From positions 166,687-230,686 of the forward strand of contig JAJZYM010000002.1 of the NCBI GenBank assembly GCA_021798115.1: a stretch of 64,000 nt of DNA, written 5' to 3'. Both the position numbers and the translations under genes were made by a program. The notes beneath the pieces were generated by a model. The model searched no databases. It saw nothing but the letters and a program-made list of their open reading frames with translations, and was not told the DNA's origin. Shown here one piece after another: positions 24,077 to 35,726 of this stretch. Source of the stretch: Pseudomonadota bacterium (GTDB lineage: Bacteria; Pseudomonadota; Gammaproteobacteria; JAKAQQ01). Each line of letters begins with the position of its first letter. Within the stretch, counting starts at the first letter, position 1.

Positions 24077-25294
24077 TCACGGAGCGCGCCGGCGACACCG
24101 TCCGTGTCGTTGAAGAGCGTAGAGGGCCACGACGCTCGTAGCCAAGGAGAAGATGATCACAGCCTGGGGTTGGGTCGCCTCGAGCCACCCCATCATCAAC
24201 CCCCCAAGCATCCACGCGCCTCCGTAGACAGCATCGAAGATCCCGAAGAGCCGTGCCCGCGCCGCCGGCGTGGATGCGTGCCGTGCCACAGCGGCGTGGA
24301 GCATTCCCTCCATCGCGCCTATGCTGAGACCCCATCCTGTCAGTCCCCACACCAAGTCGGCGAACGACGGGTGTGCCGCGCTTAGGGCGAACATCGTCAG
24401 GGGAACAAGCACGATCGGGAACTTGAGAGCCGGTGTCCCGTAGCGGTCATAGACTCTCCCGAAAACAAGCGCCGAAAGTGCGCTGACCGCCATGGACCAA
24501 GCAAAACCCAGCGCGATGAGGCGGGCCGACCAGTCTCCACGCGCCATCAGGGTGTAGCCGAAGAGAATCATGGGCGAAAGCCCCATGATCAGAAGCCCCG
24601 CGCATGCGCACAGCCAGAAAAATCCCTGCGACGGCCGATCATCGGAACGGGCAACGCCCCCCGCGGATGGCGTCCCGGTCGGAACGCTGACACGGCTCGT
24701 ACGCCGGTGGAGGCGCATGGCCAGGACCAGGACGAAGACGGCTCCTGCGGCCGGAACGAAAAGCCAGAGAAAGGCCCGGCTGTATCCGCCGGCAATTGTC
24801 GCGGCGATCAGAAGCGGTCCGGCGACAGCCCCGATCTGGTCCATGGCCTCGTGCAGCCCAAAAACCCGACCCGACCCGAGAACGTCCCCGGCGCCAGCCA
24901 ACAAGGTCTTTTTGGGGGGATTGCGCAAACCCCGTCCCAGCCGTTCAAGAAAAAGAAGCGCGATAGCGAGTCCAAGCTCGTGGACGAAGGCCATGAGCGG
25001 CAACGCCACGAGATTGATCAGATAACCGAGATAGAGAAGAACCGTCCGCGAACGCTCGCTCTTGGCCAGCAATCCGGCGGGGTAGCGAACGGCGTAACCC
25101 AGGAACTCACCCCCCCCCGCCACGAGGCCGACCGCCACGGGGCCCGCGCCCAAGACCAGCAGGAACGGACCAAGGAGGCTTCGTCCGCCCTCGTAGGTCG
25201 CGTCGGCAAAGAAGCTGACGGCTCCGAGAAGGAGAACAAAACGAAAAAGAAGAGTTCTCTGTTTCTGCGGACGATCGCCGACAGCACGATTCAT
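24077..25294 (-). CDS. MFS transporter.
   Basis: About 12 predicted TM segments with an MFS-like loop (ERLGRGLRNPPKKTLLA). Confidence 0.75.
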   Translation of the reverse strand: MNRAVGDRPQKQRTLLFRFVLLLGAVSFFADATYEGGRSLLGPFLLVLGAGPVAVGLVAGGGEFLGYAVRYPAGLLAKSERSRTVLLYLGYLINLVALPLMAFVHELGLAIALLFLERLGRGLRNPPKKTLLAGAGDVLGSGRVFGLHEAMDQIGAVAGPLLIAATIAGGYSRAFLWLFVPAAGAVFVLVLAMRLHRRTSRVSVPTGTPSAGGVARSDDRPSQGFFWLCACAGLLIMGLSPMILFGYTLMARGDWSARLIALGFAWSMAVSALSALVFGRVYDRYGTPALKFPIVLVPLTMFALSAAHPSFADLVWGLTGWGLSIGAMEGMLHAAVARHASTPAARARLFGIFDAVYGGAWMLGGLMMGWLEATQPQAVIIFSLATSVVALYALQRHGRCRRRAP

Positions 25295-25466: not shown

Positions 25467-26564
25467 GTGTCCCCGCGCCTCATGTCCGGTTCCTCTGTCG
25501 TTTTCTCCGCCCCTGGTAAAGTGGTCCTCATCGGCGAATACGCTGTTCTGGAAAATGGAGCAGCCTACGTACGTGCGGTCGACGTGCGCGCACGCGTGCG
25601 TATCGATTCGCACGCCTCCAAACACCTTCTGGAAGCGCCGGACATCAACGTCGCGGAAATCGAGTTTGAGGCTACGGCAGGCCGCAAACCGATCTGGCGA
25701 CGCTCGGACGGCAATCTCCAAGCTCCGCGCGAACTTGACCTGGCGGGCACCGTTCTGGCTGACGTCCTCGCCAGGAGCACGCCGCCACCTTGCCGCATCC
25801 GTCTTGATACCTCGGCGTTTTTTGCCGAACTCGGCCGAGGAGGACGCACCAAGATCGGGCTCGGATCGAGCGCGGCGCTGACCGTCGCCCTCGATGCCGC
25901 CATCCACGTCTGGACGTGGGGGCCCGAACACGGCGGGAAGCATGAGGATCAGACCACGGTTCTGACCCGCCTTCAAGCACTCCACACGGGGCATCAGGGT
26001 GGCCGCGGAAGCGGTCTCGACATCGCGGCGAGCCTGTGTGGAGGGACCTTCGTCTATCGGCGGGGTGAATCTCACCCCAAAATCGCCCCTCTCCCGCTCC
26101 CGGACGGGCTTGAGTTTCTCTGCGTCTGGACCGGTCGTTCCTCCTCAACGGGCGGATTTCTCGAACGCCTGGCGGCCTGGCGTCGCCGCAACGAGCGCGC
26201 GTACGAACGCTTCATGAATGATCTTGCACATCTCTCGGATCAAGGAATCGACGCGGCATCCCGCGGCGACGCCGATCGGTTTTGCGCGACTGTCAGTGAC
26301 TACAGGCGACTCCTGGACGGGCTCGGATCGGCCGCGTCGCTTCCGATCGTCTCACCCGTTCACCGGCGCCTCGAACACCTTGCAACAAAAAACGGCGTGA
26401 CGTACAAACCGTCCGGCGCCGGCGGCGGGGACATCGGTATAGCGTTCGCAGCGGATCCCCGTGGGGCGCAGCGTTTCCGGGATGCGGCCAGCAACGAGGG
26501 GTTCCTCGTCCTCTCCTGCCCTGAGGCCCCCGCCGGTCTCCGGCGGGAGGCGGAGACGACTTAG
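25467..26564 (+). CDS. mvaK2: Phosphomevalonate kinase (GHMP kinase family).
   Basis: [58 protein letters not shown]. Mevalonate kinase is encoded separately in the fusion gene. Confidence 0.8.
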
Positions 26565-27703
26565 GCGCTTCGTCCGGCTTGGCGCCGCAGTTCGTCGAGG
26601 CTGATGGCGACTGTAGACCCGGCAAGAGATTCACTCGTGCTCGGCCTCTCGTAAAGGATGGGAAGCTCGGGTGCGAGAGATCCTTCGGTGCGCGGCCCGC
26701 GCAAGTGCACCAGGAGGGCCTTGAGGGGGTGGGCGAACGTGTCGTTGACCGCCGTTCCCTCGTAGCCGCAATGCGCCATGCAGTTGTCGCATTTGGGATG
26801 CTTGCCATACCCGTAGGATTCCCAATCGGTTTCTTCCATGAGAGCACGGAACGTCGGCGCTGTCCCCTCCCCGACCAGAAGGTAACAGGGCTTCTGCCAG
26901 CCGAAAATGTTATACGTCGGGTTGCTCCACGGGGTGCACTGGTAGGTTTGGTTCCCGGCGAGGAAATCAAGGAAGAGGCTCGACTGGTTGAACACCCAGC
27001 GGCGGCGGCCTTCTTTCCCCCGACGAAAAATGGCACGAAAGAGTTCCTTGCTCTTTTGACGGGGTAGAAAACGGTCTTGGCGCGGAGCCCGCTCGTAACT
27101 GTAGCCCGGTGAGACCGTGATCCCTTCCACGCCGAGGTCCATGCAGTAATCAAAGAAGCGCGCGACCTCGTCGGGGTCTTCGCTCTGAAAAAGGGTGCAG
27201 TTGACGGTGACACGGTGACCCCGATCGCGCGCAGCGCGGATGGCCTCCGTCGCACGGACGAACACCCCGGTCTGGCACACCGAGGCGTCGTGACGTTCTT
27301 CAAGCCCGTCGAGATGGACCGAGAAGGTCAAGTAGGGCGAAGGTTTGTAATCGTCGAGTCTCTTCACGAGAAGAAGAGCGTTCGTGCACAGGTAGACGAA
27401 CTTCTTGCGCGCGATGATCCCCTCGACGATCGTGGGGAGCTCCTTGTGAAGAAGGGGTTCACCTCCCGGAATCGAGACGATCGGAGCGCCACATTCGTCG
27501 ACGGCATGAAGCGCATCCTCAACGCTCATGCGACGGCGCAAAGTCTCCTCGGGGTAATCGATTTTTCCACAACCACTGCAGGCCAGGTTGCACTGGAAGA
27601 GTGGCTCGAGCATCAGCACGAGAGGGTAACGTTTGTTGCCCTTGAGCTTTTGAGACAGGATGTAGCGACCGACACGGTACTGTTGAATCAGGGGAACAGA
27701 CAT
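26561..27703 (-). CDS. hpnH: Adenosylhopane synthase HpnH (radical SAM).
   Basis: [22 protein letters not shown]...[22 protein letters not shown], which contains the CxxxCxxC motif. Start chosen at 27703. Confidence 0.9.
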
Positions 27704-27723
27704 GATTGCGAACCTCGAGGCGG

Positions 27724-28356
27724 TCAGGTCACCGCGGGAGAAACGGGGGTGTGGGCCCGGAGGCCGGACGGGGGGAAACAAAGAAGATCCTGGACACGAT
27801 CGAAGTATTCGCCGCGAAGGGCCCACCATTCCATCAGAAACCAGGGCGTGAAGATTCCGGGCGTCTCCTCCACCGCCGTGTCGAGCTCGTCGGGAGCATA
27901 GTTACGGTACGCCGCAACCTCCTCGGGATGAACGACAGGAACGGTTGATGTCCGTCCCACGAAAACCCAGCACAGTTCGTGTTCCGAACCGGCGGCTCCA
28001 TACGAAGCCTGATAACGGAACTTGTAGACGTAATGGAGAGGGGTCTCGAGCCCGAGCTCTTGGCCCATGCGGCGGCGGGCGGCCTCCGCCGTCTCCTCCC
28101 CCAGACGCGGGTGGCTACAGCAAGCGTTCGACCAGTAAAGCGGCCACAGACGTTTGCCCGAGCTCCTCTGCTGGAGAAGCACCGAACCATCGTCTCGGAA
28201 AAGAAACACCGAAAAGGCACGGTGAAGAAGGCCCTCGCCGTCGTGGCAGAGTCGTTTGCTGGCGCTCCCGGTCGGCCGGTCATCCGCGTCGACCAGGATG
28301 AGAGGTTCCTCATCGTTCGAGACAGAAACGGATGCAGCGGGGCGATCAAGGAGCAC
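27724..28356 (-). CDS. idi: Isopentenyl-diphosphate delta-isomerase, type 1 (Nudix fold).
   Basis: [10 protein letters not shown]...[24 protein letters not shown]...[11 protein letters not shown]. The GTG start overlaps the upstream stop region by 11 nt. Confidence 0.9.
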
Positions 28357-30634
28357 GAACGCTCACCTCAAAGGCCTGATAGCCCGCGTCGTTCATCGCG
28401 TGAAGGATGCGTTTCGTATCCTCCGGGCAGAGCGCGATGACGGCGCCGCCGCCGCCGCCGCCGGTCAATTTGGCGCCCAGAGCGCCGTTTTCGCGCGCAA
28501 TCTGGACAAGCTCTTCAAGTTCCCATGTCGAGACACGAAGCGATGTCAGAAGCCCGTGGCAGAGGTTCATGAGCTCTCCGAGTTTGGCCAGATCACCCTC
28601 GCGCACGGCCGCCAAACCTTCTTGTGTGAGGTGGTCGATCTCATCAAAAATCCGCTCGTACAGTACCGGGTGCTTTTCCCATGAAGAACGTACCCGTGCC
28701 ACCATCTTGGCGGTCAGGCTTTCGACACGGCTCAGGGCGACAACGAACTTCAGCTCGCTGGCCGGTTCGAGAAACGTCATCGCGGGTTGAGCCTTGGCAT
28801 CGTAAAGAAGAAAACGTCCGTACGTCGCCACGGTGTTATCGATCCCGGAAGCCGTTCCGTGCGCGTTCTGCTCGCAGGCGTAGGCCAGGGTGTTGATCTG
28901 TTCGTCGTCCAGGCCGATCTTGTAATAGAGGTTGAGCGCGCGCGCGATCGATACCGCCATGGCGGCGGACCCGCCCAGCCCCATCGCCCGTGGCACCTGT
29001 GGATAGACCTCGATGCGCATCGGCTGGTCTTGAATACCCAACCGTTCGAGCAACATCAGAATCGAGTTCTGGAACGTGTCCGGATTGTCCGGCCGTCGGT
29101 GGACCCTCTGCTCGAGACTCCAGCGTGGAACGATCAAATGTACCCCTTCGTCTGCAGGCCTGATACGTGTGCGGATGGCGAGCGGAATGGGCGCACTCAA
29201 CGCGCGGCGCTTGTAAACAACGGCGTGTTCCCCGAGAAGAATGATCTTCCCGTGGCCCACCCCCCAGGGACCGTCGTTCGTTTCAGCGCGCACAGGCGTT
29301 TTCTCGACATGCTGGGAACGTATCTCCCGGAGCACCTCCTGAGCTTTCCATACCTTGATCTCCCCGCTTTCAATCAGTTGTTCGACCACCCGATCAAAGA
29401 CATCCGGCGTGGCACCAGCGGCCGCGGCGACGGTACGGGCGTGAAGCGTCATGTGGCCACGCTGGATGCCGTCGGTCACCAGAGCACGCAGCGCGGAAAA
29501 ATTCTGGGCGAGGCCCACCGCCCCCATGACTTCCGCAAGTTCCGTGGCCGAGCGAACACCCATCATTCTCAGGTTGACGGCGACCGTGGGGTTGGACTGC
29601 AAGGGACCACCCACGATCCCGACCTTGAGGGGGAGGGAAATCTGCCCAACGAGATCCCCCTGCTCGTTGCGGGTCCAGCGTGTCAAGGAACGGTAACGTC
29701 CGTCTCGGGCGGCGTAGGCGTGCGCGGCCGCCTCGATCGCCCGCCAGTCGTTGCCGGTCGCCAGCGCGACGGCGTCGATACCGTTCATGATCCCTTTGTT
29801 GTGTGTGGCCGCCCGATAAGGATCCACCAGCGCAAGATCCGTGGCCTGAACGATCCCGTCACAGACTTCCTGCCCGTCGTAGACCTGCTTGCCCAGCATG
29901 CGGGCCGGAATGGTGCAGGTGGCCGTCACCATGGCCCGATCGGTCAAATTGGAAAGAATACGAAGAAGAGCACGCCCCCCGGTGATGTTTTCGACAAGCG
30001 TCGCGATGCCTTCACACATCGTGTTGACCAGATTCGCGCCCATCGCGTCGCGCGTGTCGACGAGAAGATGTAGAACAAGCATATCGCGACCGGTCGAGGG
30101 TGCCACATGGCTGTGCACCTCGATATCGCGCGCCCCTCCCCCACGCGCCAGCATCTTCGGATGGATGCTGTTGGCCAACGCGAGAATCTCATCCTTGCGC
30201 TGGAGCAGTGCCGCTCGGGCCTCGGCAGGGTGCGGGACGTCAAGAACCTGGATTTGCCCGATCAGGATGGGATCGGTGGAGACACTGCGGAAGCCACCCG
30301 CAGCGCGCACGAGTTTCGCGGCCGAGCAGAGCGCGGCCACAATCGAAGGCTCCTCAACAACCAGCGGGACGACATAATCGCGGCCGTTCACGAAAAAGTT
30401 GAGACCGAGACCTACGGGAAGACCCATGACCGCGATCACGTTCTCGATCATCTTGTCCGCGTGGTGCAGACGAAGGGTGTGCTTGCCGACGGTCAGGAGA
30501 CGGTAATCATCCTCGTCGATAAACCCACGTTCGTGGATGGCCCGCACCCGCTCGGTCACGCTGAGCTTATGAAAGTTCGGTATACGCGAACGCTCCATGA
30601 CAAGCCCCTTCGAAGCCGTAAGGTTGTTCGTCAC
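28346..30634 (-). CDS. mvaA-mvk: Bifunctional fusion of class II HMG-CoA reductase (aa ~1-440) and mevalonate kinase (aa ~456-762).
   Basis: The HMGR part has ENVIAVMGLPVG, VVPLVVEEPSIVAA, DAMGANLVNTMCEG and THNKGIMNGIDAVALATGNDWRA. After the linker QHVEKTPVRAETND, the MVK part has HGKIILLGEHAVVY, GLGGSAAMAVS and KLTGGGGGGAVIAL. This is one uninterrupted 762-aa ORF. Confidence 0.9.
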   Translation of the reverse strand: MTNNLTASKGLVMERSRIPNFHKLSVTERVRAIHERGFIDEDDYRLLTVGKHTLRLHHADKMIENVIAVMGLPVGLGLNFFVNGRDYVVPLVVEEPSIVAALCSAAKLVRAAGGFRSVSTDPILIGQIQVLDVPHPAEARAALLQRKDEILALANSIHPKMLARGGGARDIEVHSHVAPSTGRDMLVLHLLVDTRDAMGANLVNTMCEGIATLVENITGGRALLRILSNLTDRAMVTATCTIPARMLGKQVYDGQEVCDGIVQATDLALVDPYRAATHNKGIMNGIDAVALATGNDWRAIEAAAHAYAARDGRYRSLTRWTRNEQGDLVGQISLPLKVGIVGGPLQSNPTVAVNLRMMGVRSATELAEVMGAVGLAQNFSALRALVTDGIQRGHMTLHARTVAAAAGATPDVFDRVVEQLIESGEIKVWKAQEVLREIRSQHVEKTPVRAETNDGPWGVGHGKIILLGEHAVVYKRRALSAPIPLAIRTRIRPADEGVHLIVPRWSLEQRVHRRPDNPDTFQNSILMLLERLGIQDQPMRIEVYPQVPRAMGLGGSAAMAVSIARALNLYYKIGLDDEQINTLAYACEQNAHGTASGIDNTVATYGRFLLYDAKAQPAMTFLEPASELKFVVALSRVESLTAKMVARVRSSWEKHPVLYERIFDEIDHLTQEGLAAVREGDLAKLGELMNLCHGLLTSLRVSTWELEELVQIARENGALGAKLTGGGGGGAVIALCPEDTKRILHAMNDAGYQAFEVSVRAP

Positions 30635-30756
30635 CGCCCCGTTCGTTCAGGATTGCGTACGGACAACCGTCGGTTCATTATAAACCGTTCAGGACTTGAA
30701 ACCCCGCGGGGCCGTCCTTGGTCTCTCTATCTCGGGCCACACCTTTCGAGCTCCGT

Positions 30757-31842
30757 TCAGGGGGATTCCATGGAAGGTGCCCGTCGCCGTGACCAGAACC
30801 GACGTCCTTCCGCCCACTGCCAGGAAAGCAGCGCAAAGCCGCCGTAGACGATTTCACGCAGGCGCTTGAGCACCGAAACCGCAAGCATGAGGTCGGCCGG
30901 GAGTCCGAGCACCCCGCCAAGGAAGACGAGGCCCATTTCCTGGATGCCCAAAGCCCCGGGAACGAAGAACCCCCCCGTTCGCAAGGCCTGAACGCCGGCC
31001 TCAAGAATCATCGCATCGAGAGGGTCGACTGGACGTCCCATGAGACGGAGTGCAATCCACACTTCTCCCGCGCCCACCAGAAGACCGGCGATCTGGCCGG
31101 CAAAGCACCACAGAAGTGCTGCACCACGGCGATAGATCGCACGAATGTCCCGATCGATCTCCGCGGCCGTATCTCCGTTCTTGCCGGCGAGCACCTCAAG
31201 CCCCGTAAGACGCCGAAGAGCCCGTCCGCAGAAACCGACCAACCCTCCGTGCTGGAAAAGAACAAAAATCCCCACAATGGCCAGCGCCACGGCCACCGCT
31301 GGCAAGGCGTGGACGAAGAGCGAGCCTCGGCCGACAAAGACGGCAAGCAGCACGAACCCGAAGAGCGCGAGCACAATCTGGCTCAAGAGAGTCACAGTGA
31401 CTTCCACCACCACCGTCGCTGTCGCAAACGCAAGAGGCAGGCCTCGGCGTGTCACGAGATGCACACCGGCAACCTCTCCCCCGATGCGCACGACCGGAAG
31501 GACAGACCCGACAGCCTCGCGAATCGACGCAACCCAGAAAAGGTAGGGGACAGATGCCGCTTCGGGATATTCCGGCCGGAGCCGGATGAGCGAACGCCAC
31601 CCTAAAGCATCAAGGGTCAGCGGAAGTGCATGATAGGGAACAAGCCAAAAAGCCCCCAGGCCGGCCGCGGCCAAAGCGGCCACGACGGCCTCGCCGGCAT
31701 GTCGGGCGAAAACGAGGAAAGCCGCTGCCAGAAGAGCGAGCCCCCCGAGGTAGAGAGCAAAGGAGCCCCATACACGGCGAGGACTCGCGCGAGGAGACAG
31801 GTCGGCTTGGGAGCCCGACGAGGAAACGGCCGCATCAAGCAT
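30757..31842 (-). CDS. hpnL: Flippase-like / UPF0104 membrane protein, HpnL-like (copy 2).
   Basis: It is polytopic with the same architecture as 10552-11628. It starts 2 nt after the hpnN stop. Confidence 0.7.
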   Translation of the reverse strand: MLDAAVSSSGSQADLSPRASPRRVWGSFALYLGGLALLAAAFLVFARHAGEAVVAALAAAGLGAFWLVPYHALPLTLDALGWRSLIRLRPEYPEAASVPYLFWVASIREAVGSVLPVVRIGGEVAGVHLVTRRGLPLAFATATVVVEVTVTLLSQIVLALFGFVLLAVFVGRGSLFVHALPAVAVALAIVGIFVLFQHGGLVGFCGRALRRLTGLEVLAGKNGDTAAEIDRDIRAIYRRGAALLWCFAGQIAGLLVGAGEVWIALRLMGRPVDPLDAMILEAGVQALRTGGFFVPGALGIQEMGLVFLGGVLGLPADLMLAVSVLKRLREIVYGGFALLSWQWAEGRRFWSRRRAPSMESP

Positions 31843-31844
31843 CT

Positions 31845-34511
31845 CTACCCTGCACCCTGCATTTTCATCTTGCCGGGATTGTGCGCCACCAGCGTCAACA
31901 GAGACGGCAACACAACCAGTGTACTCACAAGAACCCAGGCCAGAGCGATCACGAGCGCCTGGCCCAGGCTGCTCACGCCGGGATCGGCCGCCAACATAAG
32001 ACTGCCGAAGGTCCCCAGGGTCGTGACTCCACTGTAGAGCACGCCCCGCGGTGTGCTGCTTCGAAGCACATTTTCAACCGGGATGCCGTCACGCCAGCGG
32101 AGAATGAAATAGATGCCGTAGGCCAGCGACAGACCCAAAAGCAGGGGGAGCACGATGATATTGGCCAGATTGTACGATAGATGCAGGACGGCCATGCTCG
32201 CCGTCGTGAGCACGACGGTGATGACGGTGGTGCCGAGAATCAGACCGACGTCCCGCCAGCGGCGGAGCACGAGATAAAGAAGTGCGGCCGTCAGCACGAG
32301 AGCGATCAAGGACGCCTCGACGAAGGCGTCGAGCACGGTCTCTCCACCCGCGACGAGCATCACCGGAGTGCCGACGGCGTTCGGGGCCAGGCGACGAACC
32401 TGGCGAACGAATCGCTGCAGAGCCGTCTCGCGGGCCAGATCGAGTCGGGAAAAGATTTCCAGGCGGTAGATTCGCCCGGGGGCTCGAAACAAGCGGACTA
32501 CGGTGTGCGGAAGTGTCGCCGCCGTGACCGCGGGAGGACGCAACGCATGGCTCAGGAAATCAAGATTCGAAACCAATCCCCCAAGAAGAGTGTGTTGCAA
32601 GCGGCTGAGCGCCGTGGACCCGCGGTCGCGAAGCAAGCGACTCAGGGAGGACGCAAAGCGCCGAAGGGCGGAGCGAAGGCGGGGATTGTGGACCGACGCC
32701 TTCGTGAGATCCTTGAACACCGCGGCGTCCCTCTTTAATCGCGCCACGGCATCGACGGGAAGGCTGAGATAACGCTTTCGATCGGGACGCAGGGTGAACG
32801 GGGGGAGAATCAAGCGCAGACGCCGCAGGAGAGCCTGTTTGCGCCGCTGGTTTCGCGGGATCAGGGTGCGGAGGCTGACGACACGACCCACGCTCGACAA
32901 TCGGGCGAGACGATCAGCCATGAGGCGGGCACGACGACGGCCGCGCACGAGAAGATTGATACTGTACGGCGAGTAACGGCTCCGCGCCGCAAGACGATCG
33001 AGTGTGCGGACGGCGGGGGCCTGCGGGTTCATGAGGTGAAGAGGGTTGAAATCGAAACGCGTCCGGAGAGCCAACGGTACAGCGGCAACGGCCAAAAGCA
33101 CAGCCATCACCAAAACGGGTCGAGCCCAGGTGCGAATCAAGGACGCGTAGCGCGCCGCCAGCCGGTGGGCGGACGGCGGAAAGCGGTGCGCTCGACCGAA
33201 AAGGCGGATCCAGACCGGCATCAGGGTGATATAGGCGAAAACGGCAACAAACATGCTCGTTCCCGCAACCAAACCCAGATCAATGATGCCCGTGTAATCC
33301 GTGGGCAGGAACGAATAAAAACTGATGGCCGCCGCCGACGCAGCCAGCGCAAGCGGCCACGTCAGACCCCGGGCCGTACGGGTGAGCGCCCGGGTTGTGT
33401 CGGCTTGTGCGTGGTATTCCTCAAGATACCGAACACCGTACTGCACACCGAAATCGACGCCCAAACCAACGAAGAGGACGGAGAAAGCCACTGAAATGAG
33501 GTTGAACGGCCCGAAAGCGAGGGTGGCCAAGGCCGTCGTCCAGGCCAGCCCCACGACGAGAGTCAAGAGAATCGCCGCAGTCATGCGGACACTGCGCACG
33601 GCCAGAGCCACAAGGACGAGAATGATCAGGAACGAGACCACCAGGGCCCCCCCGAGACCTTGGCGCACGGTCACAAGCTGCTCGTCGGCGAGCACCGCTC
33701 CACCGGTCCAGCCCACGCGGATCCCGTGCGCCGGGTCGATCCCAAGCTCGGGGAGAACACGGCGAAGCCGCTCCAGCGCCGCATGGTACGGGCGAAGTTT
33801 CTGGGATTGCGCCCGAGGACGAACCGTTACGATCGTTCGTGGGACACGCGCCCTTCGGGCGAGCCTGCCCGGCATCAGGATCCGCGCCCAGTCGAGGCGT
33901 ACGGGCCGATGTCTGCGGAAACGACCGAAGGAGCGGGTGAGCGCGTGGAGAACCGGTGGGAGGAGACGGTCCTTGAGACGGTGGAGTCCGTGATGCTCGA
34001 TCGCCGTTTTGAGAAGTCCCGTCAACCCCGTAAGCGTGGGCCGGCGGGCCAGGCGGCCCAGGAGCGGGCCGGCACGTGTCAGGCGCCTCGCAAAATGTCT
34101 CAACTCGGGAAGGGACAGATAGAGGAGCGCCGCACGATGAAAGAACGGATCGACCTCCGGGTCGAGAGGATCCTGGTACTCGTGCGGGTGCTGACGAAGC
34201 CACACAAGGAGCTTCCGTGCGGCCCGATCGACGGCGTGACGCGTCGGTCCGTGGAGCACAAGAACGACCGCGTTGTGCCGTTGGGGGAAAAGCTTCTCGA
34301 AACGGCGGTTGAGAACGTGAAAACGAAGCTCTTTCGAGAGAAGATTGCTCGTCCGCGTATCGATTCCCGCTCGCGTGGCGATCACGTAACCGGAACCCGC
34401 CGTGAGCAGAAGGGTCGCGAGAAGGATCCAAGGTGCACGGCGGGCGGTCCACGTCTGATAAGTCGCCAGCGCGGAAATCCCGCGGGAAAGAAAACGATCC
34501 CATCGCGTCAT
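31845..34511 (-). CDS. hpnN: RND/MMPL-type hopanoid transporter HpnN-like (copy 2).
   Basis: The protein is 888 aa from MTRWDRFLSRGISA. This ATG forms an ATGA overlap with the mvaD stop. The RND blocks are as for copy 1, and the gene is embedded in the hpn cluster. Confidence 0.85.
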   Translation of the reverse strand: MTRWDRFLSRGISALATYQTWTARRAPWILLATLLLTAGSGYVIATRAGIDTRTSNLLSKELRFHVLNRRFEKLFPQRHNAVVLVLHGPTRHAVDRAARKLLVWLRQHPHEYQDPLDPEVDPFFHRAALLYLSLPELRHFARRLTRAGPLLGRLARRPTLTGLTGLLKTAIEHHGLHRLKDRLLPPVLHALTRSFGRFRRHRPVRLDWARILMPGRLARRARVPRTIVTVRPRAQSQKLRPYHAALERLRRVLPELGIDPAHGIRVGWTGGAVLADEQLVTVRQGLGGALVVSFLIILVLVALAVRSVRMTAAILLTLVVGLAWTTALATLAFGPFNLISVAFSVLFVGLGVDFGVQYGVRYLEEYHAQADTTRALTRTARGLTWPLALAASAAAISFYSFLPTDYTGIIDLGLVAGTSMFVAVFAYITLMPVWIRLFGRAHRFPPSAHRLAARYASLIRTWARPVLVMAVLLAVAAVPLALRTRFDFNPLHLMNPQAPAVRTLDRLAARSRYSPYSINLLVRGRRRARLMADRLARLSSVGRVVSLRTLIPRNQRRKQALLRRLRLILPPFTLRPDRKRYLSLPVDAVARLKRDAAVFKDLTKASVHNPRLRSALRRFASSLSRLLRDRGSTALSRLQHTLLGGLVSNLDFLSHALRPPAVTAATLPHTVVRLFRAPGRIYRLEIFSRLDLARETALQRFVRQVRRLAPNAVGTPVMLVAGGETVLDAFVEASLIALVLTAALLYLVLRRWRDVGLILGTTVITVVLTTASMAVLHLSYNLANIIVLPLLLGLSLAYGIYFILRWRDGIPVENVLRSSTPRGVLYSGVTTLGTFGSLMLAADPGVSSLGQALVIALAWVLVSTLVVLPSLLTLVAHNPGKMKMQGAG

Positions 34512-35578
34512 GGATTCGTTTCCCGCCATGCATCCCGCCCCCCGGCGCAGGGCTCCTCGGGCGGGAGGAGACGAGCCCCCTCCCCGAGCCGGCAGACAAT
34601 CAGGCGACGCACGCCTGCCACGCTCAAGAGCCGCTCTCGAACAGCCGCGAGCGCCTCGTTCGTGCAGACGGCCTTGACCTGCGGCCCGGCGTCCACGGTG
34701 AAGAACACCTCGTGGCCGCTCCGTCGAAGAGCCACAATTTCGTGCAGCGCCTCGACCGTTGCCCCGCGCCAATAAAGAAGACCCGGGCGGGCGGACATCG
34801 CGAGCGCGTGCATCTTGAGGCAGCTGGCTTCGGACACCGCGGCGAGACGTGAAAAATCATGATGGCGAATGGCCTCACGCGCCTCATCGAGATCCGCGGG
34901 ATGGCTGGAGACCCAGGCCGTGGCGTACGGAGAGGTCGCAAAGCTTCGACGCATACCCTCCCCGGAACCGATTTCTTTTTCCTCCTCGCGGATCACGGCG
35001 ACCACGACGTTGAGCGGCCAATCCGTGGGGGACAGAAGTGGACGGGCTACAGCATCACTCCCGTCCGGACTCTGGCCCGTCGACATTTCGACAAACCCGC
35101 CGTAGAGCGAGCGGGGGGCCGAACCGGAGGCCTCACGGGCGAGACAGGAGCGCTCGTTTTCCGAGAGACGAAGTCCGAGGGCGGCCTCCGCGGCGACGAG
35201 GAGCGCGGCGAAGCCCGAAGCGGAGGAAGCGAGCCCCGCACCCGTCGGAAAATCGTTGACACTCTCGACTTCCGCCGCACCCGCATCGGGAACGTAACGG
35301 CGAAGACGGTCGAGAAGCGCTCGAACACGGCGGCGTGTGTTGACGTCGGCCTCCGCTCTTCCGAGCCGGATCCGGTCGTCGCCACCGGATCCCGTGAAAT
35401 GCACGCACGTCTGTGTCGCCATCCCATTGAGCGTCATCGAAATCGACCCGACGGCGGGACGGTTGCCCTCCCCGTCTTTTTTCCCCCAGTACTTGACGAG
35501 CGCAATGTTCGGATGCGCCACTGCGCAGGCTTGTCCGAACGTGCCGTCGGCGCGGGAGGATCGAGGGGAGTACGTCAT
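34508..35578 (-). CDS. mvaD: Diphosphomevalonate decarboxylase.
   Basis: PNIALVKYWGKKD, NDFPTGAGLASSASGFAALL, SGSAPRSLYGGF. Start chosen at MTYSPRS (35578). Confidence 0.9.
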   Translation of the reverse strand: MTYSPRSSRADGTFGQACAVAHPNIALVKYWGKKDGEGNRPAVGSISMTLNGMATQTCVHFTGSGGDDRIRLGRAEADVNTRRRVRALLDRLRRYVPDAGAAEVESVNDFPTGAGLASSASGFAALLVAAEAALGLRLSENERSCLAREASGSAPRSLYGGFVEMSTGQSPDGSDAVARPLLSPTDWPLNVVVAVIREEEKEIGSGEGMRRSFATSPYATAWVSSHPADLDEAREAIRHHDFSRLAAVSEASCLKMHALAMSARPGLLYWRGATVEALHEIVALRRSGHEVFFTVDAGPQVKAVCTNEALAAVRERLLSVAGVRRLIVCRLGEGARLLPPEEPCAGGRDAWRETNP

Positions 35579-35726
35579 GGATGAAAGTCGAGGCAACCGT
35601 CTTGGGGATCCCAGGCGGAGAAGTTTGACTAGAACCTTTGATTCTATCAGAGCAGCTTTGGGCGATCGGGTCAAAAGTGGTGACTTGCGTGTCTTGCCAT
35701 GCCAGGACGCGCTGTCGGTTGGAGTT

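What the first reader, a model, noticed from the sequence alone, without database searches (positions are those of the whole stretch)
28346..30634. Single-ORF fusion of class II HMG-CoA reductase with mevalonate kinase
A continuous 762-aa ORF carries a full class II HMGR (ENVIAVMGLP, EEPSIVAA, DAMGANLVN, THNKGIMNGIDAV; aa ~1-440). A short linker (QHVEKTPVRAETND) follows, then a full GHMP mevalonate kinase (GKIILLGEHAVVY, GLGGSAAMAVS, KLTGGGGGGAVIAL). The fusion joins two consecutive pathway steps, which suggests mevalonate channelling. The bacterial HMGR fusion I know of is thiolase-HMGR (enterococcal mvaE); I do not recall an HMGR-MVK fusion being characterised.
Basis: partly seen in the sequence, partly recalled or inferred. 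Interest (0 to 1): 0.6.

Follow-up and report, generated by a model that had tools for sequence, protein, structure and literature searches.

The report
Fused HMG-CoA reductase–mevalonate kinase enzyme
One gene in this small mine-drainage bacterium encodes two consecutive mevalonate-pathway enzymes as a single protein, the genome's only detected copy of either, but the same fusion is common in public genomes, is labelled by its first half only, and I found no study of it.

Summary
The likely start is the ATG at 30598, giving 750 aa.

- **Domains.** Residues 1-430 are a complete class II HMG-CoA reductase and residues 446-750 a complete mevalonate kinase. A disordered linker of about 15 residues joins them.
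- **Not an artefact.** Six relatives at about 63-99% identity keep one open frame. So do 149 fused homologues and a near-identical contig from another study.
- **Not rare.** The fusion occurs in many Gammaproteobacteria and several other phyla. On an HMGR tree the fused state changed at least three times. Reversed and triple (plus IDI) forms exist. This scan has met the fusion before on other DNA.
- **No published study found.** Databases call it "HMG-CoA reductase, degradative".
- **Direction.** The genome shows no Dxs, Dxr or IspH, and no second HMGR or MVK. The gene sits among PMK-like, MVD, IDI and hopanoid genes. The cofactor helix looks NADPH-type. It is most likely biosynthetic and essential.
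- **Channelling is not shown.** The model gives two well-folded domains with no confident contact.
- **Unexpected.** I found no HMG-CoA synthase in this genome, in eight relatives, or in seven of 24 other fusion carriers, one a chromosome-level record. A leucine-catabolism (liu) cluster may supply HMG-CoA.

The parts
28346..30598 (-). HMGR::MVK coding sequence (750 aa plus stop). The open frame extends upstream to a GTG at 30634.
   Evidence: 750-aa near-identical proteins.
29309..30598 (-). Class II HMG-CoA reductase domain, residues 1-430, including the C-terminal flap domain.
   Evidence: Aligns 4-429 to residues 5-428 of P. mevalonii HMGR (1QAX), E 1e-123. Fold TM 0.94, rmsd 2.1-2.2 A to PmHMGR ternary complexes. 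E83, K268, D284 and H382 conserved.
30143..30163 (-). Cofactor helix, residues 146-152, HPKMLAR. H replaces the Asp146 of the NADH-type P. mevalonii enzyme, and Arg is at position 7.
   Evidence: Alignment. Motif rule (NADH Dx(V/L)xxxL; NADPH (H/Y)xSxxxR) as quoted in PMC13488460.
29264..29308 (-). Inter-domain linker, residues 431-445, variable in sequence and length among homologues.
   Evidence: pLDDT below 50 for residues 431-441. Median linker 17 aa in 149 fused proteins, rich in A/E/P/S/T/R. Relatives differ by in-frame length changes.
28349..29263 (-). Mevalonate kinase (GHMP) domain, residues 446-750.
   Evidence: TIGR00549 247 bits over a cut-off of 163. L. major MVK 2HFS 1e-44. Fold TM 0.87-0.88 to M. 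mazei MVK. K451, E457, H458, S544, E576 and D587 invariant.
30605..30611 (-). Shine-Dalgarno-like GAAGGGG, 6 nt before the ATG.
   Evidence: Sequence read.
27724..28356 (-). Type 1 isopentenyl-diphosphate isomerase (idi). Its longest ORF overlaps the fusion's last codons by 11 nt.
   Evidence: NF002995 164 bits (cut-off 127) and TIGR02150 147.5 bits. NUDIX domain.
26561..27829 (-). hpnH, adenosyl-hopene transferase (radical SAM).
   Evidence: TIGR03470 542 bits.
25467..26564 (+). GHMP kinase, probable phosphomevalonate kinase (below the curated cut-offs), convergent with hpnH.
   Evidence: TIGR01220 95 bits (cut-off 165.7) and NF040957 78 bits.
30757..31842 (-). hpnL-like membrane protein, upstream neighbour.
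   Evidence: TIGR03476 256 bits.
31845..34772 (-). hpnN hopanoid RND transporter. The listed ORF is over-long at its 5' end and overlaps mvaD.
   Evidence: TIGR03480 797 bits, match from residue 104.
34508..35674 (-). Diphosphomevalonate decarboxylase (mvaD).
   Evidence: TIGR01240 236.6 bits over a cut-off of 171. Pfam MVD-like_N and MDD_C.

Best explanation
The gene encodes a genuine bifunctional enzyme. An N-terminal class II HMG-CoA reductase reduces HMG-CoA to mevalonate, probably with NADPH. A C-terminal mevalonate kinase phosphorylates mevalonate to mevalonate-5-phosphate with ATP.

The two catalytic modules are complete. They are joined by a flexible, poorly conserved tether of about 15 residues attached to the end of the reductase's mobile flap domain.

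In this genome the fusion is the only HMGR and the only MVK detected, and no MEP pathway was found. It would therefore carry all flux to isoprenoids (hopanoids, quinones, cell-wall carrier lipid). It is probably co-expressed with idi and hpnH, inside a mixed mevalonate/hopanoid gene block.

Shown: architecture, intact catalytic residues, conservation of the frame, sole-copy status, genomic context.

Inferred: both activities, NADPH preference, and the benefit of fusion. I think the benefit is fixed 1:1 stoichiometry plus proximity. The irreversible kinase step would pull a freely reversible reductase forward and stop mevalonate escaping or being re-oxidised. I do not expect a sealed channel. 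Because stand-alone class II HMGRs and MVKs are both homo-oligomers (established knowledge), the fusion may also form larger assemblies that raise the local enzyme concentration. That last point is speculation.
For: - **Domain scores and full-length alignments:**
- **Fold matches:** TM 0.94 (HMGR) and 0.87-0.88 (MVK), with no PDB chain covering both halves.
- **Catalytic residues:** E83, K268, D284 and H382 correspond to P. mevalonii E83/K267/D283/H381. MVK residues K451, E457, H458, S544, E576 and D587 are invariant or nearly so in 19 diverse fusions.
- **Frame kept:** in six relatives at 63-99% identity, in 149 fused homologues with linkers mostly 10-25 aa, and in contigs of four runs with substitutions but no indel in the CDS.
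- **Expression hint:** metatranscriptome-library contigs cover 28461-30548, including the junction bin.
- **Sole copy:** only one HMGR and only one MVK over cut-off in the 97%-complete genome.
- **No MEP pathway found:** no Dxs over cut-off, no Dxr, no IspH. IspH was found in 0 of 9 family relatives against 6 of 7 other families of the class.
- **Neighbours:** MVD, PMK-like, IDI, hpnH, hpnL, hpnN.
- **Cofactor helix:** HPKMLAR fits the NADPH-type H...R pattern and lacks the Asp of NADH enzymes.
- **Recurrent fusion:** at least 3 changes of the HMGR-MVK state are forced by well-supported branches. A true reversed MVK-HMGR (P0158) and HMGR-MVK-IDI triples (P0136, P0137) exist. This argues that physical linkage is selected.
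Against: - No biochemical data exist for any member that I could find.
- The AlphaFold model shows no confident inter-domain contact (pTM 0.61, linker pLDDT below 50), so channelling in the strict sense is unsupported.
- NCBIfam's best model is named "degradative", after the catabolic P. mevalonii enzyme.
- Position 3 of the cofactor motif is Lys, not the Ser of characterised NADPH enzymes, so cofactor use is a prediction.
- No HMG-CoA synthase was found, so the source of the substrate is unresolved.
- RNA evidence comes from assembled contigs of an RNA library, which cannot exclude contaminating DNA.
- The tree is a FastTree with many weak branches.
Confidence: 0.75

Rival explanations
1. Assembly or sequencing artefact: two adjacent genes (hmgr, mvk) wrongly joined by a missed stop or frameshift in the linker.
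For: Adjacent but separate hmgr then mvk genes do exist in Myxococcus, Corallococcus, Virgibacillus and Paucisalibacillus, so the unfused arrangement is real elsewhere.
Against: No indel in the CDS in contigs of four runs from four studies, and a spanning contig with 0 gaps. Near-identical 750-aa proteins come from NCBI, JGI, ENA and Logan assemblies. Six relatives at 63-99% identity and 149 homologues keep one frame, with in-frame linker length changes.
Confidence: 0.01
2. Catabolic or branch-point enzyme. The organism takes up mevalonate, the kinase half sends part of it to isoprenoids, and the reductase half runs backwards (mevalonate to HMG-CoA). HMG-CoA lyase then yields acetyl-CoA and acetoacetate, as in Pseudomonas mevalonii.
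For: The best NCBIfam model is the "degradative" HMGR, and the closest solved structure is the catabolic P. mevalonii enzyme at about 50% identity. The genome has an HMG-CoA lyase at 407 bits and no HMG-CoA synthase. An MFS transporter gene lies beside the PMK-like gene.
Against: The cofactor helix lacks the Asp that marks NADH/NAD+ enzymes and has the H...R of NADPH enzymes. The gene sits with MVD, IDI and hopanoid genes, not with the lyase, which is on another contig inside a leucine-catabolism cluster. Of 24 other carriers, 17 do have an HMGS-like gene, in at least six of them within a few kb of the fusion. Free mevalonate is not known to me as a common environmental substrate.
Confidence: 0.07
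3. True substrate channelling through a defined inter-domain interface or tunnel, so that mevalonate never equilibrates with the cytosol.
For: The steps are consecutive. The tether is short (median 17 aa). Fusions arose repeatedly in both domain orders, and some have almost no linker (P0199, 2 aa) or start the kinase inside a truncated flap (P0147, P0150).
Against: The model gives no confident relative placement of the domains (pTM 0.61 against mean pLDDT 91). Linker sequence and length are not conserved. Both domain orders exist, which is hard to reconcile with one specific interface.
Confidence: 0.12
4. One half is a catalytically dead, regulatory or scaffolding domain.
For: None specific. 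This is a general possibility for fused paralogues, and a second GHMP kinase is nearby.
Against: All catalytic and nucleotide-binding motifs of both halves are conserved across fusions at 34-89% identity. Each half is the genome's only candidate for its step. The nearby GHMP kinase scores as PMK-like, not MVK.
Confidence: 0.03

Closest known systems
MvaE of Enterococcus faecalis (acetoacetyl-CoA thiolase fused to class II HMGR; PDB 7M1Z, 7M3H)
   Same: A natural bifunctional mevalonate-pathway protein containing a class II HMGR. The HMGR halves are homologous (E 4e-88).
   Different: In MvaE the partner is a thiolase, it lies N-terminal to HMGR, and the two steps are not consecutive. Here the partner is mevalonate kinase, it lies C-terminal, and the steps are consecutive. 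No thiolase domain is present.
Stand-alone class II HMGR of Pseudomonas mevalonii (1QAX, 4I4B) and of Delftia and Burkholderia
   Same: About 50% identity over the whole 428-aa enzyme including the flap domain. Same catalytic residues. TM 0.94.
   Different: Those enzymes end where the linker starts here. P. mevalonii uses NAD+ catabolically and has Asp146 and Leu148, where this protein has His146 and Lys148.
Stand-alone mevalonate kinases (Leishmania major 2HFS, Methanosarcina mazei 6MDE)
   Same: GHMP fold and motifs, about 30% identity, TM 0.79-0.88.
   Different: They are free-standing proteins. Here the N-terminus is tethered to HMGR.
Adjacent, unfused hmgr then mvk genes of Myxococcus, Corallococcus and Virgibacillus
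   Same: Same gene order, so plausibly the kind of arrangement from which the fusion arises by loss of a stop codon.
   Different: They are two separate ORFs of about 431-453 aa plus mvk. On the HMGR tree they fall outside the main fused clade.
HMGR-MVK-IDI triple fusions (P0136, P0137) and reversed MVK-HMGR (P0158)
   Same: Same enzymes linked physically. The triple form adds the gene that directly follows, and overlaps, the fusion in this window.
   Different: Extra Nudix-type IDI domain, or the opposite domain order.
IspDF of the MEP pathway
   Same: A common natural fusion within an isoprenoid precursor pathway (cited in PMC13001223).
   Different: Different pathway and unrelated folds. 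It joins non-consecutive steps.

Membership tests
Class II HMG-CoA reductase (PF00368 / TIGR00532) | Full-length match to the family model above the curated cut-off | tested here: met
   PF00368 374.9 bits, profile 2-368 of 368. TIGR00532 400.6 bits against a cut-off of 259.95.
Class II HMG-CoA reductase (PF00368 / TIGR00532) | Catalytic Glu, Lys, Asp and His (P. mevalonii E83, K267, D283, H381; residue identities from my own knowledge of the literature) | tested here: met
   E83, K268, D284 and H382 align to those positions. They are invariant or at least 90% conserved in 19 fusions.
Class II HMG-CoA reductase (PF00368 / TIGR00532) | Soluble enzyme with a C-terminal flap domain and no class I membrane anchor | tested here: met
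   The alignment covers P. mevalonii residues 5-428 starting at residue 4 here. TM 0.94 to closed ternary complexes.
Class II HMG-CoA reductase (PF00368 / TIGR00532) | Cofactor preference (NADH-type Dx(V/L)xxxL against NADPH-type (H/Y)xSxxxR cofactor helix) | tested here: inconclusive
   HPKMLAR has the H and R of the NADPH motif but Lys instead of Ser at position 3. It needs an assay.
Mevalonate kinase (TIGR00549; GHMP superfamily) | Score above the equivalog cut-off, plus both GHMP domains | tested here: met
   TIGR00549 247.3 bits against 163.05. PF00288 and PF08544 both present.
Mevalonate kinase (TIGR00549; GHMP superfamily) | Catalytic and phosphate-binding residues (N-terminal Lys, motif II Ser, Glu, catalytic Asp; roles from my own knowledge of rat and human MVK) | tested here: met
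   K451, S544, E576 and D587 are invariant in the alignment.
Mevalonate kinase (TIGR00549; GHMP superfamily) | Phosphorylates mevalonate rather than phosphomevalonate | not testable with these tools
   Indirect only. It scores far better as MVK than as PMK (247 against 41 bits), and a separate PMK-like gene lies nearby.
MvaE-type bifunctional enzyme | Thiolase domain fused N-terminally to HMGR | tested here: not met
   No thiolase domain. HMGR starts at residue 4. It is not an MvaE.
Substrate-channelling bifunctional enzyme | A defined inter-domain interface or tunnel linking the two active sites | tested here: inconclusive
   Monomer model only: pTM 0.61, linker pLDDT below 50, no confident domain packing. 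The oligomer was not modelled.
Classical (eukaryote-type) mevalonate pathway | Full set: thiolase, HMGS, HMGR, MVK, PMK, MVD, IDI | tested here: not met
   Thiolase, HMGR, MVK, MVD and IDI are found, with a PMK-like gene below cut-off. HMG-CoA synthase was not found with TIGR01835, PF01154, PF08540 or three protein queries.

The most novel reading that the evidence does not exclude
In this lineage the mevalonate pathway has no HMG-CoA synthase. The same holds for other fusion carriers, including one with a 5.45-Mb chromosome-level record. HMG-CoA would instead be drawn from the leucine/isovalerate catabolic (liu) route, whose complete gene cluster ends in HMG-CoA lyase.

The HMGR-MVK fusion would then act as the commitment device. 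It competes with the lyase for HMG-CoA and traps the product irreversibly as mevalonate-5-phosphate. With no MEP pathway and no LeuA detected, all isoprenoids of this small-genome bacterium would derive from imported leucine or isovalerate.
Probability: 0.3. Interest if true: 0.7.

Novelty: new variant of a known kind. Interest (0 to 1): 0.45.

Why it matters
- **An untested natural design.** HMGR is the classic flux-controlling step of the mevalonate pathway, and mevalonate kinase is its main feedback-regulated partner. A fusion of the two that has been selected repeatedly is a ready-made experiment on whether tethering consecutive enzymes improves flux. It is also an off-the-shelf part for terpenoid engineering.
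- **An annotation gap.** Many fused database proteins are named only "HMG-CoA reductase, degradative". Pathway reconstructions will then report mevalonate kinase as missing and imply the wrong direction.
- **A testable question about the substrate.** This genome has the fusion, no MEP pathway and no detectable HMG-CoA synthase. How does such a bacterium make HMG-CoA? A leucine-fed mevalonate route would be new for bacteria, as far as I could find.

Tried and rejected
- **Plus-strand reading.** The plus strand at the given coordinates is full of stops; the gene is on the minus strand.
- **Wrong-frame neighbour.** The 171-aa ORF at 27834-28349 has no family hit. The real neighbour is the 210-aa idi frame.
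- **Literature.** Eight full-text searches and six papers read found no description of an HMGR-MVK fusion. Hoshino & Gaucher 2018 only say that fused foreign parts were trimmed. The 2026 J Bacteriol review lists only MvaE and IspDF. Mi et al. 2014 treat M. xanthus hmgr and mvk as separate genes, which agrees with my finding that myxococcal genes are adjacent but not fused.
Context in other genomes came from the search for related loci and the genome search instead.
- **HMGS candidates.** The weak TIGR01835 hit at C28:50986-51492 appears in every genome searched at similar weak scores and also hits Thiolase_N weakly. It looks like FabH, not HMGS.
- **Promoter.** The sigma-70 scan found nothing in 26300-31000. 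A TATAAT-like hexamer is visible upstream of the start, but I make no claim from it. The terminator-like hits inside the CDS are close to chance expectation.
- **2-oxoacid dehydrogenase on contig C5.** The E1alpha/E1beta/E2 genes could supply isovaleryl-CoA, but they score as PDH-type subgroup x. Their specificity could not be settled.
- **Association test.** HMG-CoA lyase is over cut-off in 5 of the 7 HMGS-less carriers and in 9 of the 17 with HMGS. That is too weak to call an association.
- **RNA cover.** RNA-library contigs stop near both gene ends (28461, 30548). Contigs cannot define transcript ends, so I make no claim.
- **One mistyped reference** was corrected.
Full report
**1. The observation**

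The window contains a 762-codon ORF plus stop at 28346-30634, but on the minus strand. The plus-strand reading is full of stops.

Domain searches support both halves:
- Pfam finds HMG-CoA_red (5e-112, profile 2-368 of 368), GHMP_kinases_N and GHMP_kinases_C.
- NCBIfam finds TIGR00532 (400.6 bits, cut-off 260).
- NCBIfam also finds the mevalonate-kinase equivalog TIGR00549 (247.3 bits, cut-off 163), which covers all 276 model positions.

The probable start is the ATG at 30598, giving 750 aa, for three reasons:
- It is preceded by GAAGGGG at a spacing of 6 nt.
- Near-identical database proteins are 750 aa.
- One strain variant has a 1-nt insertion inside the GTG-to-ATG extension.

All residue numbers below use the 750-aa numbering.

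**2. It is not an artefact**

- The stretch occurs almost unchanged in mine-drainage, mine-tailings and sediment metagenomes from ten studies.
- I laid contigs of four runs from four studies on 28200-30800. They show many substitutions, but no insertion or deletion inside the 750-codon CDS was listed.
- One 9585-nt contig spans the whole gene with 4 substitutions and no gap. It comes from a study other than those flagged as the possible source. The tool nevertheless warns that it may be the source.
- Contigs from a metatranscriptome library cover 28461-30548, including the junction. This is compatible with transcription of the joined form but does not prove it.
- Six of nine genomes of the same family carry the same uninterrupted frame at 63-99% identity. 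The three without it are only 65-80% complete.
- Close relatives differ in the linker by in-frame length changes.

**3. Anatomy**

*Reductase half.* Residues 4-429 align end to end with the 428-residue P. mevalonii HMGR (E 1e-123), including its C-terminal flap domain. The catalytic Glu, Lys, Asp and His are present as E83, K268, D284 and H382. They are conserved in 19 fusions that share as little as 34% identity.

*Kinase half.* It begins at about residue 446. Its GHMP motifs are invariant: K451, E457/H458, S544, E576 and D587, and the Gly-rich third motif is conserved (G705, G708, K710, G713, G717, G718). Its best solved relatives are the Leishmania major and Methanosarcina mazei mevalonate kinases.

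*Model.* An AlphaFold2 model built on a 54-sequence alignment has mean pLDDT 91.2 but pTM only 0.61. Residues 431-441 are below pLDDT 50. This describes two well-defined domains on a flexible tether with no confident contact. Foldseek matches the halves separately: TM 0.94 to PmHMGR ternary complexes and 0.87-0.88 to M. mazei MVK. No solved chain covers both halves.

*Linker.* In 149 fused homologues the linker between domain-model ends has a median of 17 residues, mostly 10-25. It is enriched in Ala, Glu, Pro, Ser, Thr and Arg. A few proteins have almost no linker, or start the kinase inside a truncated flap.

**4. Direction and cofactor**

NCBI's name, "degradative", comes from the catabolic P. 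mevalonii enzyme. In that enzyme the cofactor helix reads D146-x-L148. Here the same positions are H146-P-K148-M-L-A-R152. A 2026 paper summarises the rule of Miller and Kung: NADH enzymes carry Dx(V/L)xxxL and NADPH enzymes carry (H/Y)xSxxxR (PMC13488460). The fusion has the His and the Arg of the NADPH form and a Lys where Ser is usual. The helix consensus among the fusions is H-P-x-M-V-A-R.

I therefore predict NADPH, or dual, use and a biosynthetic direction. This is a prediction and has not been tested.

**5. Role in this genome**

The assembly is 1.88 Mb, 66% G+C and 97% complete.
- The fusion holds the only HMGR match and the only MVK match over cut-off.
- No Dxs over cut-off, no Dxr and no IspH were found.
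- IspH was found in none of nine family relatives, but in six of seven other families of the class.

Around the gene, on the minus strand, lie mvaD (TIGR01240, 237 bits), hpnN, hpnL, then the fusion. A type 1 idi follows, whose ORF overlaps the fusion's end by 11 nt, and then hpnH. A PMK-like GHMP kinase converges on hpnH from the other strand.

The protein is thus the entry point of what appears to be the cell's only isoprenoid route, embedded in a hopanoid gene block.

**6. How common, and how often invented**

- All 120 best hits of a 5.8-billion-protein search are about 750 aa with the same three Pfam domains. Many carry no name. Those that are named are mostly called only "hydroxymethylglutaryl-CoA reductase", with or without "degradative". 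They come from Rhodanobacter, Dyella, Nevskia, Wenzhouxiangella, Litchfieldella and many metagenome-assembled genomes (MAGs).
- In a library clustered at 50% identity, about 20 clusters are fused over their full length.
- Among species genomes, an uninterrupted fused ORF occurs in Rhodanobacteraceae, Nevskia, Woeseiaceae and Pseudomonadales. It also occurs in the isolates Endozoicomonas sp. G2_2 and Cryobacterium psychrotolerans, and in Caldithrix, Balneolaceae, Ignavibacteriaceae and Acidobacteria MAGs.
- Myxococcus, Corallococcus, Virgibacillus and Paucisalibacillus have adjacent but separate hmgr and mvk genes.

A FastTree of 142 HMGR domains gives the following:
- This protein falls in a well-supported clade (99) of 29 rows. 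Twenty-four are HMGR-MVK, two are HMGR-MVK-IDI and three are short HMGR-only entries.
- Six further HMGR-MVK proteins lie elsewhere.
- Well-supported branches force at least three changes of the fused state.
- Phyla are mixed within the fused clade. For example, Endozoicomonas pairs with Cryobacterium at support 99, which suggests horizontal transfer.

Other architectures exist:
- a true reversed MVK-HMGR (P0158, TIGR00549 204 bits);
- PMK-like-HMGR (P0166, P0192);
- thiolase-HMGR (P0230);
- HMGR-polyprenyl synthase (P0165);
- HMGR-squalene synthase-epimerase (P0177).

Repeated fusion in both orders argues that linkage itself is advantageous. It argues against one specific docking geometry.

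**7. Mechanism**

I consider a bifunctional, biosynthetic enzyme the best-supported reading (confidence 0.75). The sequence and the model support tethering rather than a tunnel. The likely gains are inferred:
- equal amounts of the two enzymes;
- proximity;
- an ATP-driven kinase step that pulls a reversible reductase forward.

Strict channelling, a catabolic branch-point role and a dead domain are the rivals. Their evidence is set out in the rival explanations. An artefact is excluded.

**8. An unexpected gap: no HMG-CoA synthase**

HMGS was not found by any of these searches:
- TIGR01835, PF01154 and PF08540 in this genome;
- TIGR01835 in eight family relatives;
- tblastn with three HMGS proteins taken from other fusion-bearing Gammaproteobacteria.

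Only a weak FabH-like hit appears, and the same hit is present in every genome searched.

As a positive control, the same model found an HMGS-like gene in 17 of 24 other fusion-bearing genomes, in at least six of them within a few kb of the fusion. It found none in seven, including the 5.45-Mb chromosome-level record OY762279.1. A protein query confirmed the absence in five of those seven.

The genome does carry a complete liu-type cluster on another contig. Its genes, in order, are:
1. a Leu-dehydrogenase-like gene;
2. an acyl-CoA dehydrogenase;
3. a thiolase;
4. a carboxyltransferase;
5. an enoyl-CoA hydratase of the LiuC/AtuE type;
6. a biotin carboxylase;
7. HMG-CoA lyase (407 bits).

The lyase-thiolase spacing is conserved in the five family relatives where both genes lie on one contig. 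LeuA was not found, and LeuB was not found over cut-off.

A leucine- or isovalerate-fed mevalonate pathway would fit these facts. Leucine is a known sterol precursor in trypanosomatids (PMC5993337). I found no bacterial example described. This rests on absences in MAGs plus one chromosome-level record, so I give it about 0.3.

**9. Comparison with what is known, and novelty**

Each half is an ordinary member of its family. All defining features that could be tested were met.

The whole is not an MvaE, because it has no thiolase and joins different steps. It works like a two-step module of the classical mevalonate pathway.

The architecture is visible in public databases and has been met repeatedly by this scan on other DNA. 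I found no paper that names or characterises it, and the recent review of bacterial isoprenoid pathway diversity lists only MvaE and IspDF.

I rate it a new variant of a known kind. It is genuine, widespread and unstudied. The finding itself is of moderate interest. The HMGS-less context is the more surprising part.

Noticed in passing
own genome, contig C26:27000-43000 (locus L024), and the whole genome: No HMG-CoA synthase is detectable in this genome, in eight family relatives, or in 7 of 24 other fusion carriers (one a chromosome-level record). A complete liu-type leucine-catabolism cluster ending in HMG-CoA lyase is present and could supply HMG-CoA.
   Followed up: partly
own genome (whole): No LeuA, and no LeuB over cut-off, in a 97%-complete 1.88-Mb genome. 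The organism may be a leucine auxotroph, which would tie its isoprenoid supply to imported leucine if the liu route feeds HMGR.
   Followed up: partly
window 28346-28356 (fusion stop / idi start overlap); proteins P0136, P0137: The idi ORF overlaps the end of the fusion by 11 nt. Elsewhere, HMGR-MVK-IDI triple fusions of 928-952 aa exist, in the same gene order as here.
   Followed up: partly
proteins P0165, P0177, P0166, P0192, P0158: Class II HMGR takes part in several other fusions: HMGR-polyprenyl synthase; HMGR-squalene/phytoene synthase-NAD epimerase (1253 aa); PMK-like-HMGR; and reversed MVK-HMGR.
   Followed up: partly
window 25467-35674: Mevalonate genes (PMK-like, idi, HMGR::MVK, mvaD) are interleaved with hopanoid genes (hpnH, hpnL, hpnN) rather than forming a separate operon.
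   Followed up: partly
window 24077-25294 (-): An MFS transporter gene lies next to the PMK-like gene. Its substrate is unknown, and it could matter for the mevalonate-uptake rival.
   Followed up: no
window 30600: One contig of run X12 has a T inserted just upstream of the ATG at 30598. It falls inside the longer GTG-started frame, which supports the shorter gene model.
   Followed up: yes
own genome, contig C5:16000-24500 (locus L105): E1alpha/E1beta/E2 genes of a 2-oxoacid dehydrogenase complex score as PDH subgroup x (TIGR03181, 466 bits). Whether it is a branched-chain keto-acid dehydrogenase that makes isovaleryl-CoA is unresolved.
   Followed up: partly
genomes G042, G043, G045 (loci L027, L029, L032; L029 and L032 are titled Rhodanobacter and Chiayiivirga): These carriers have IspH (MEP pathway) together with the fusion and no HMGS. 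In them the fused enzyme cannot be the sole isoprenoid route, and it may serve a side pathway.
   Followed up: no
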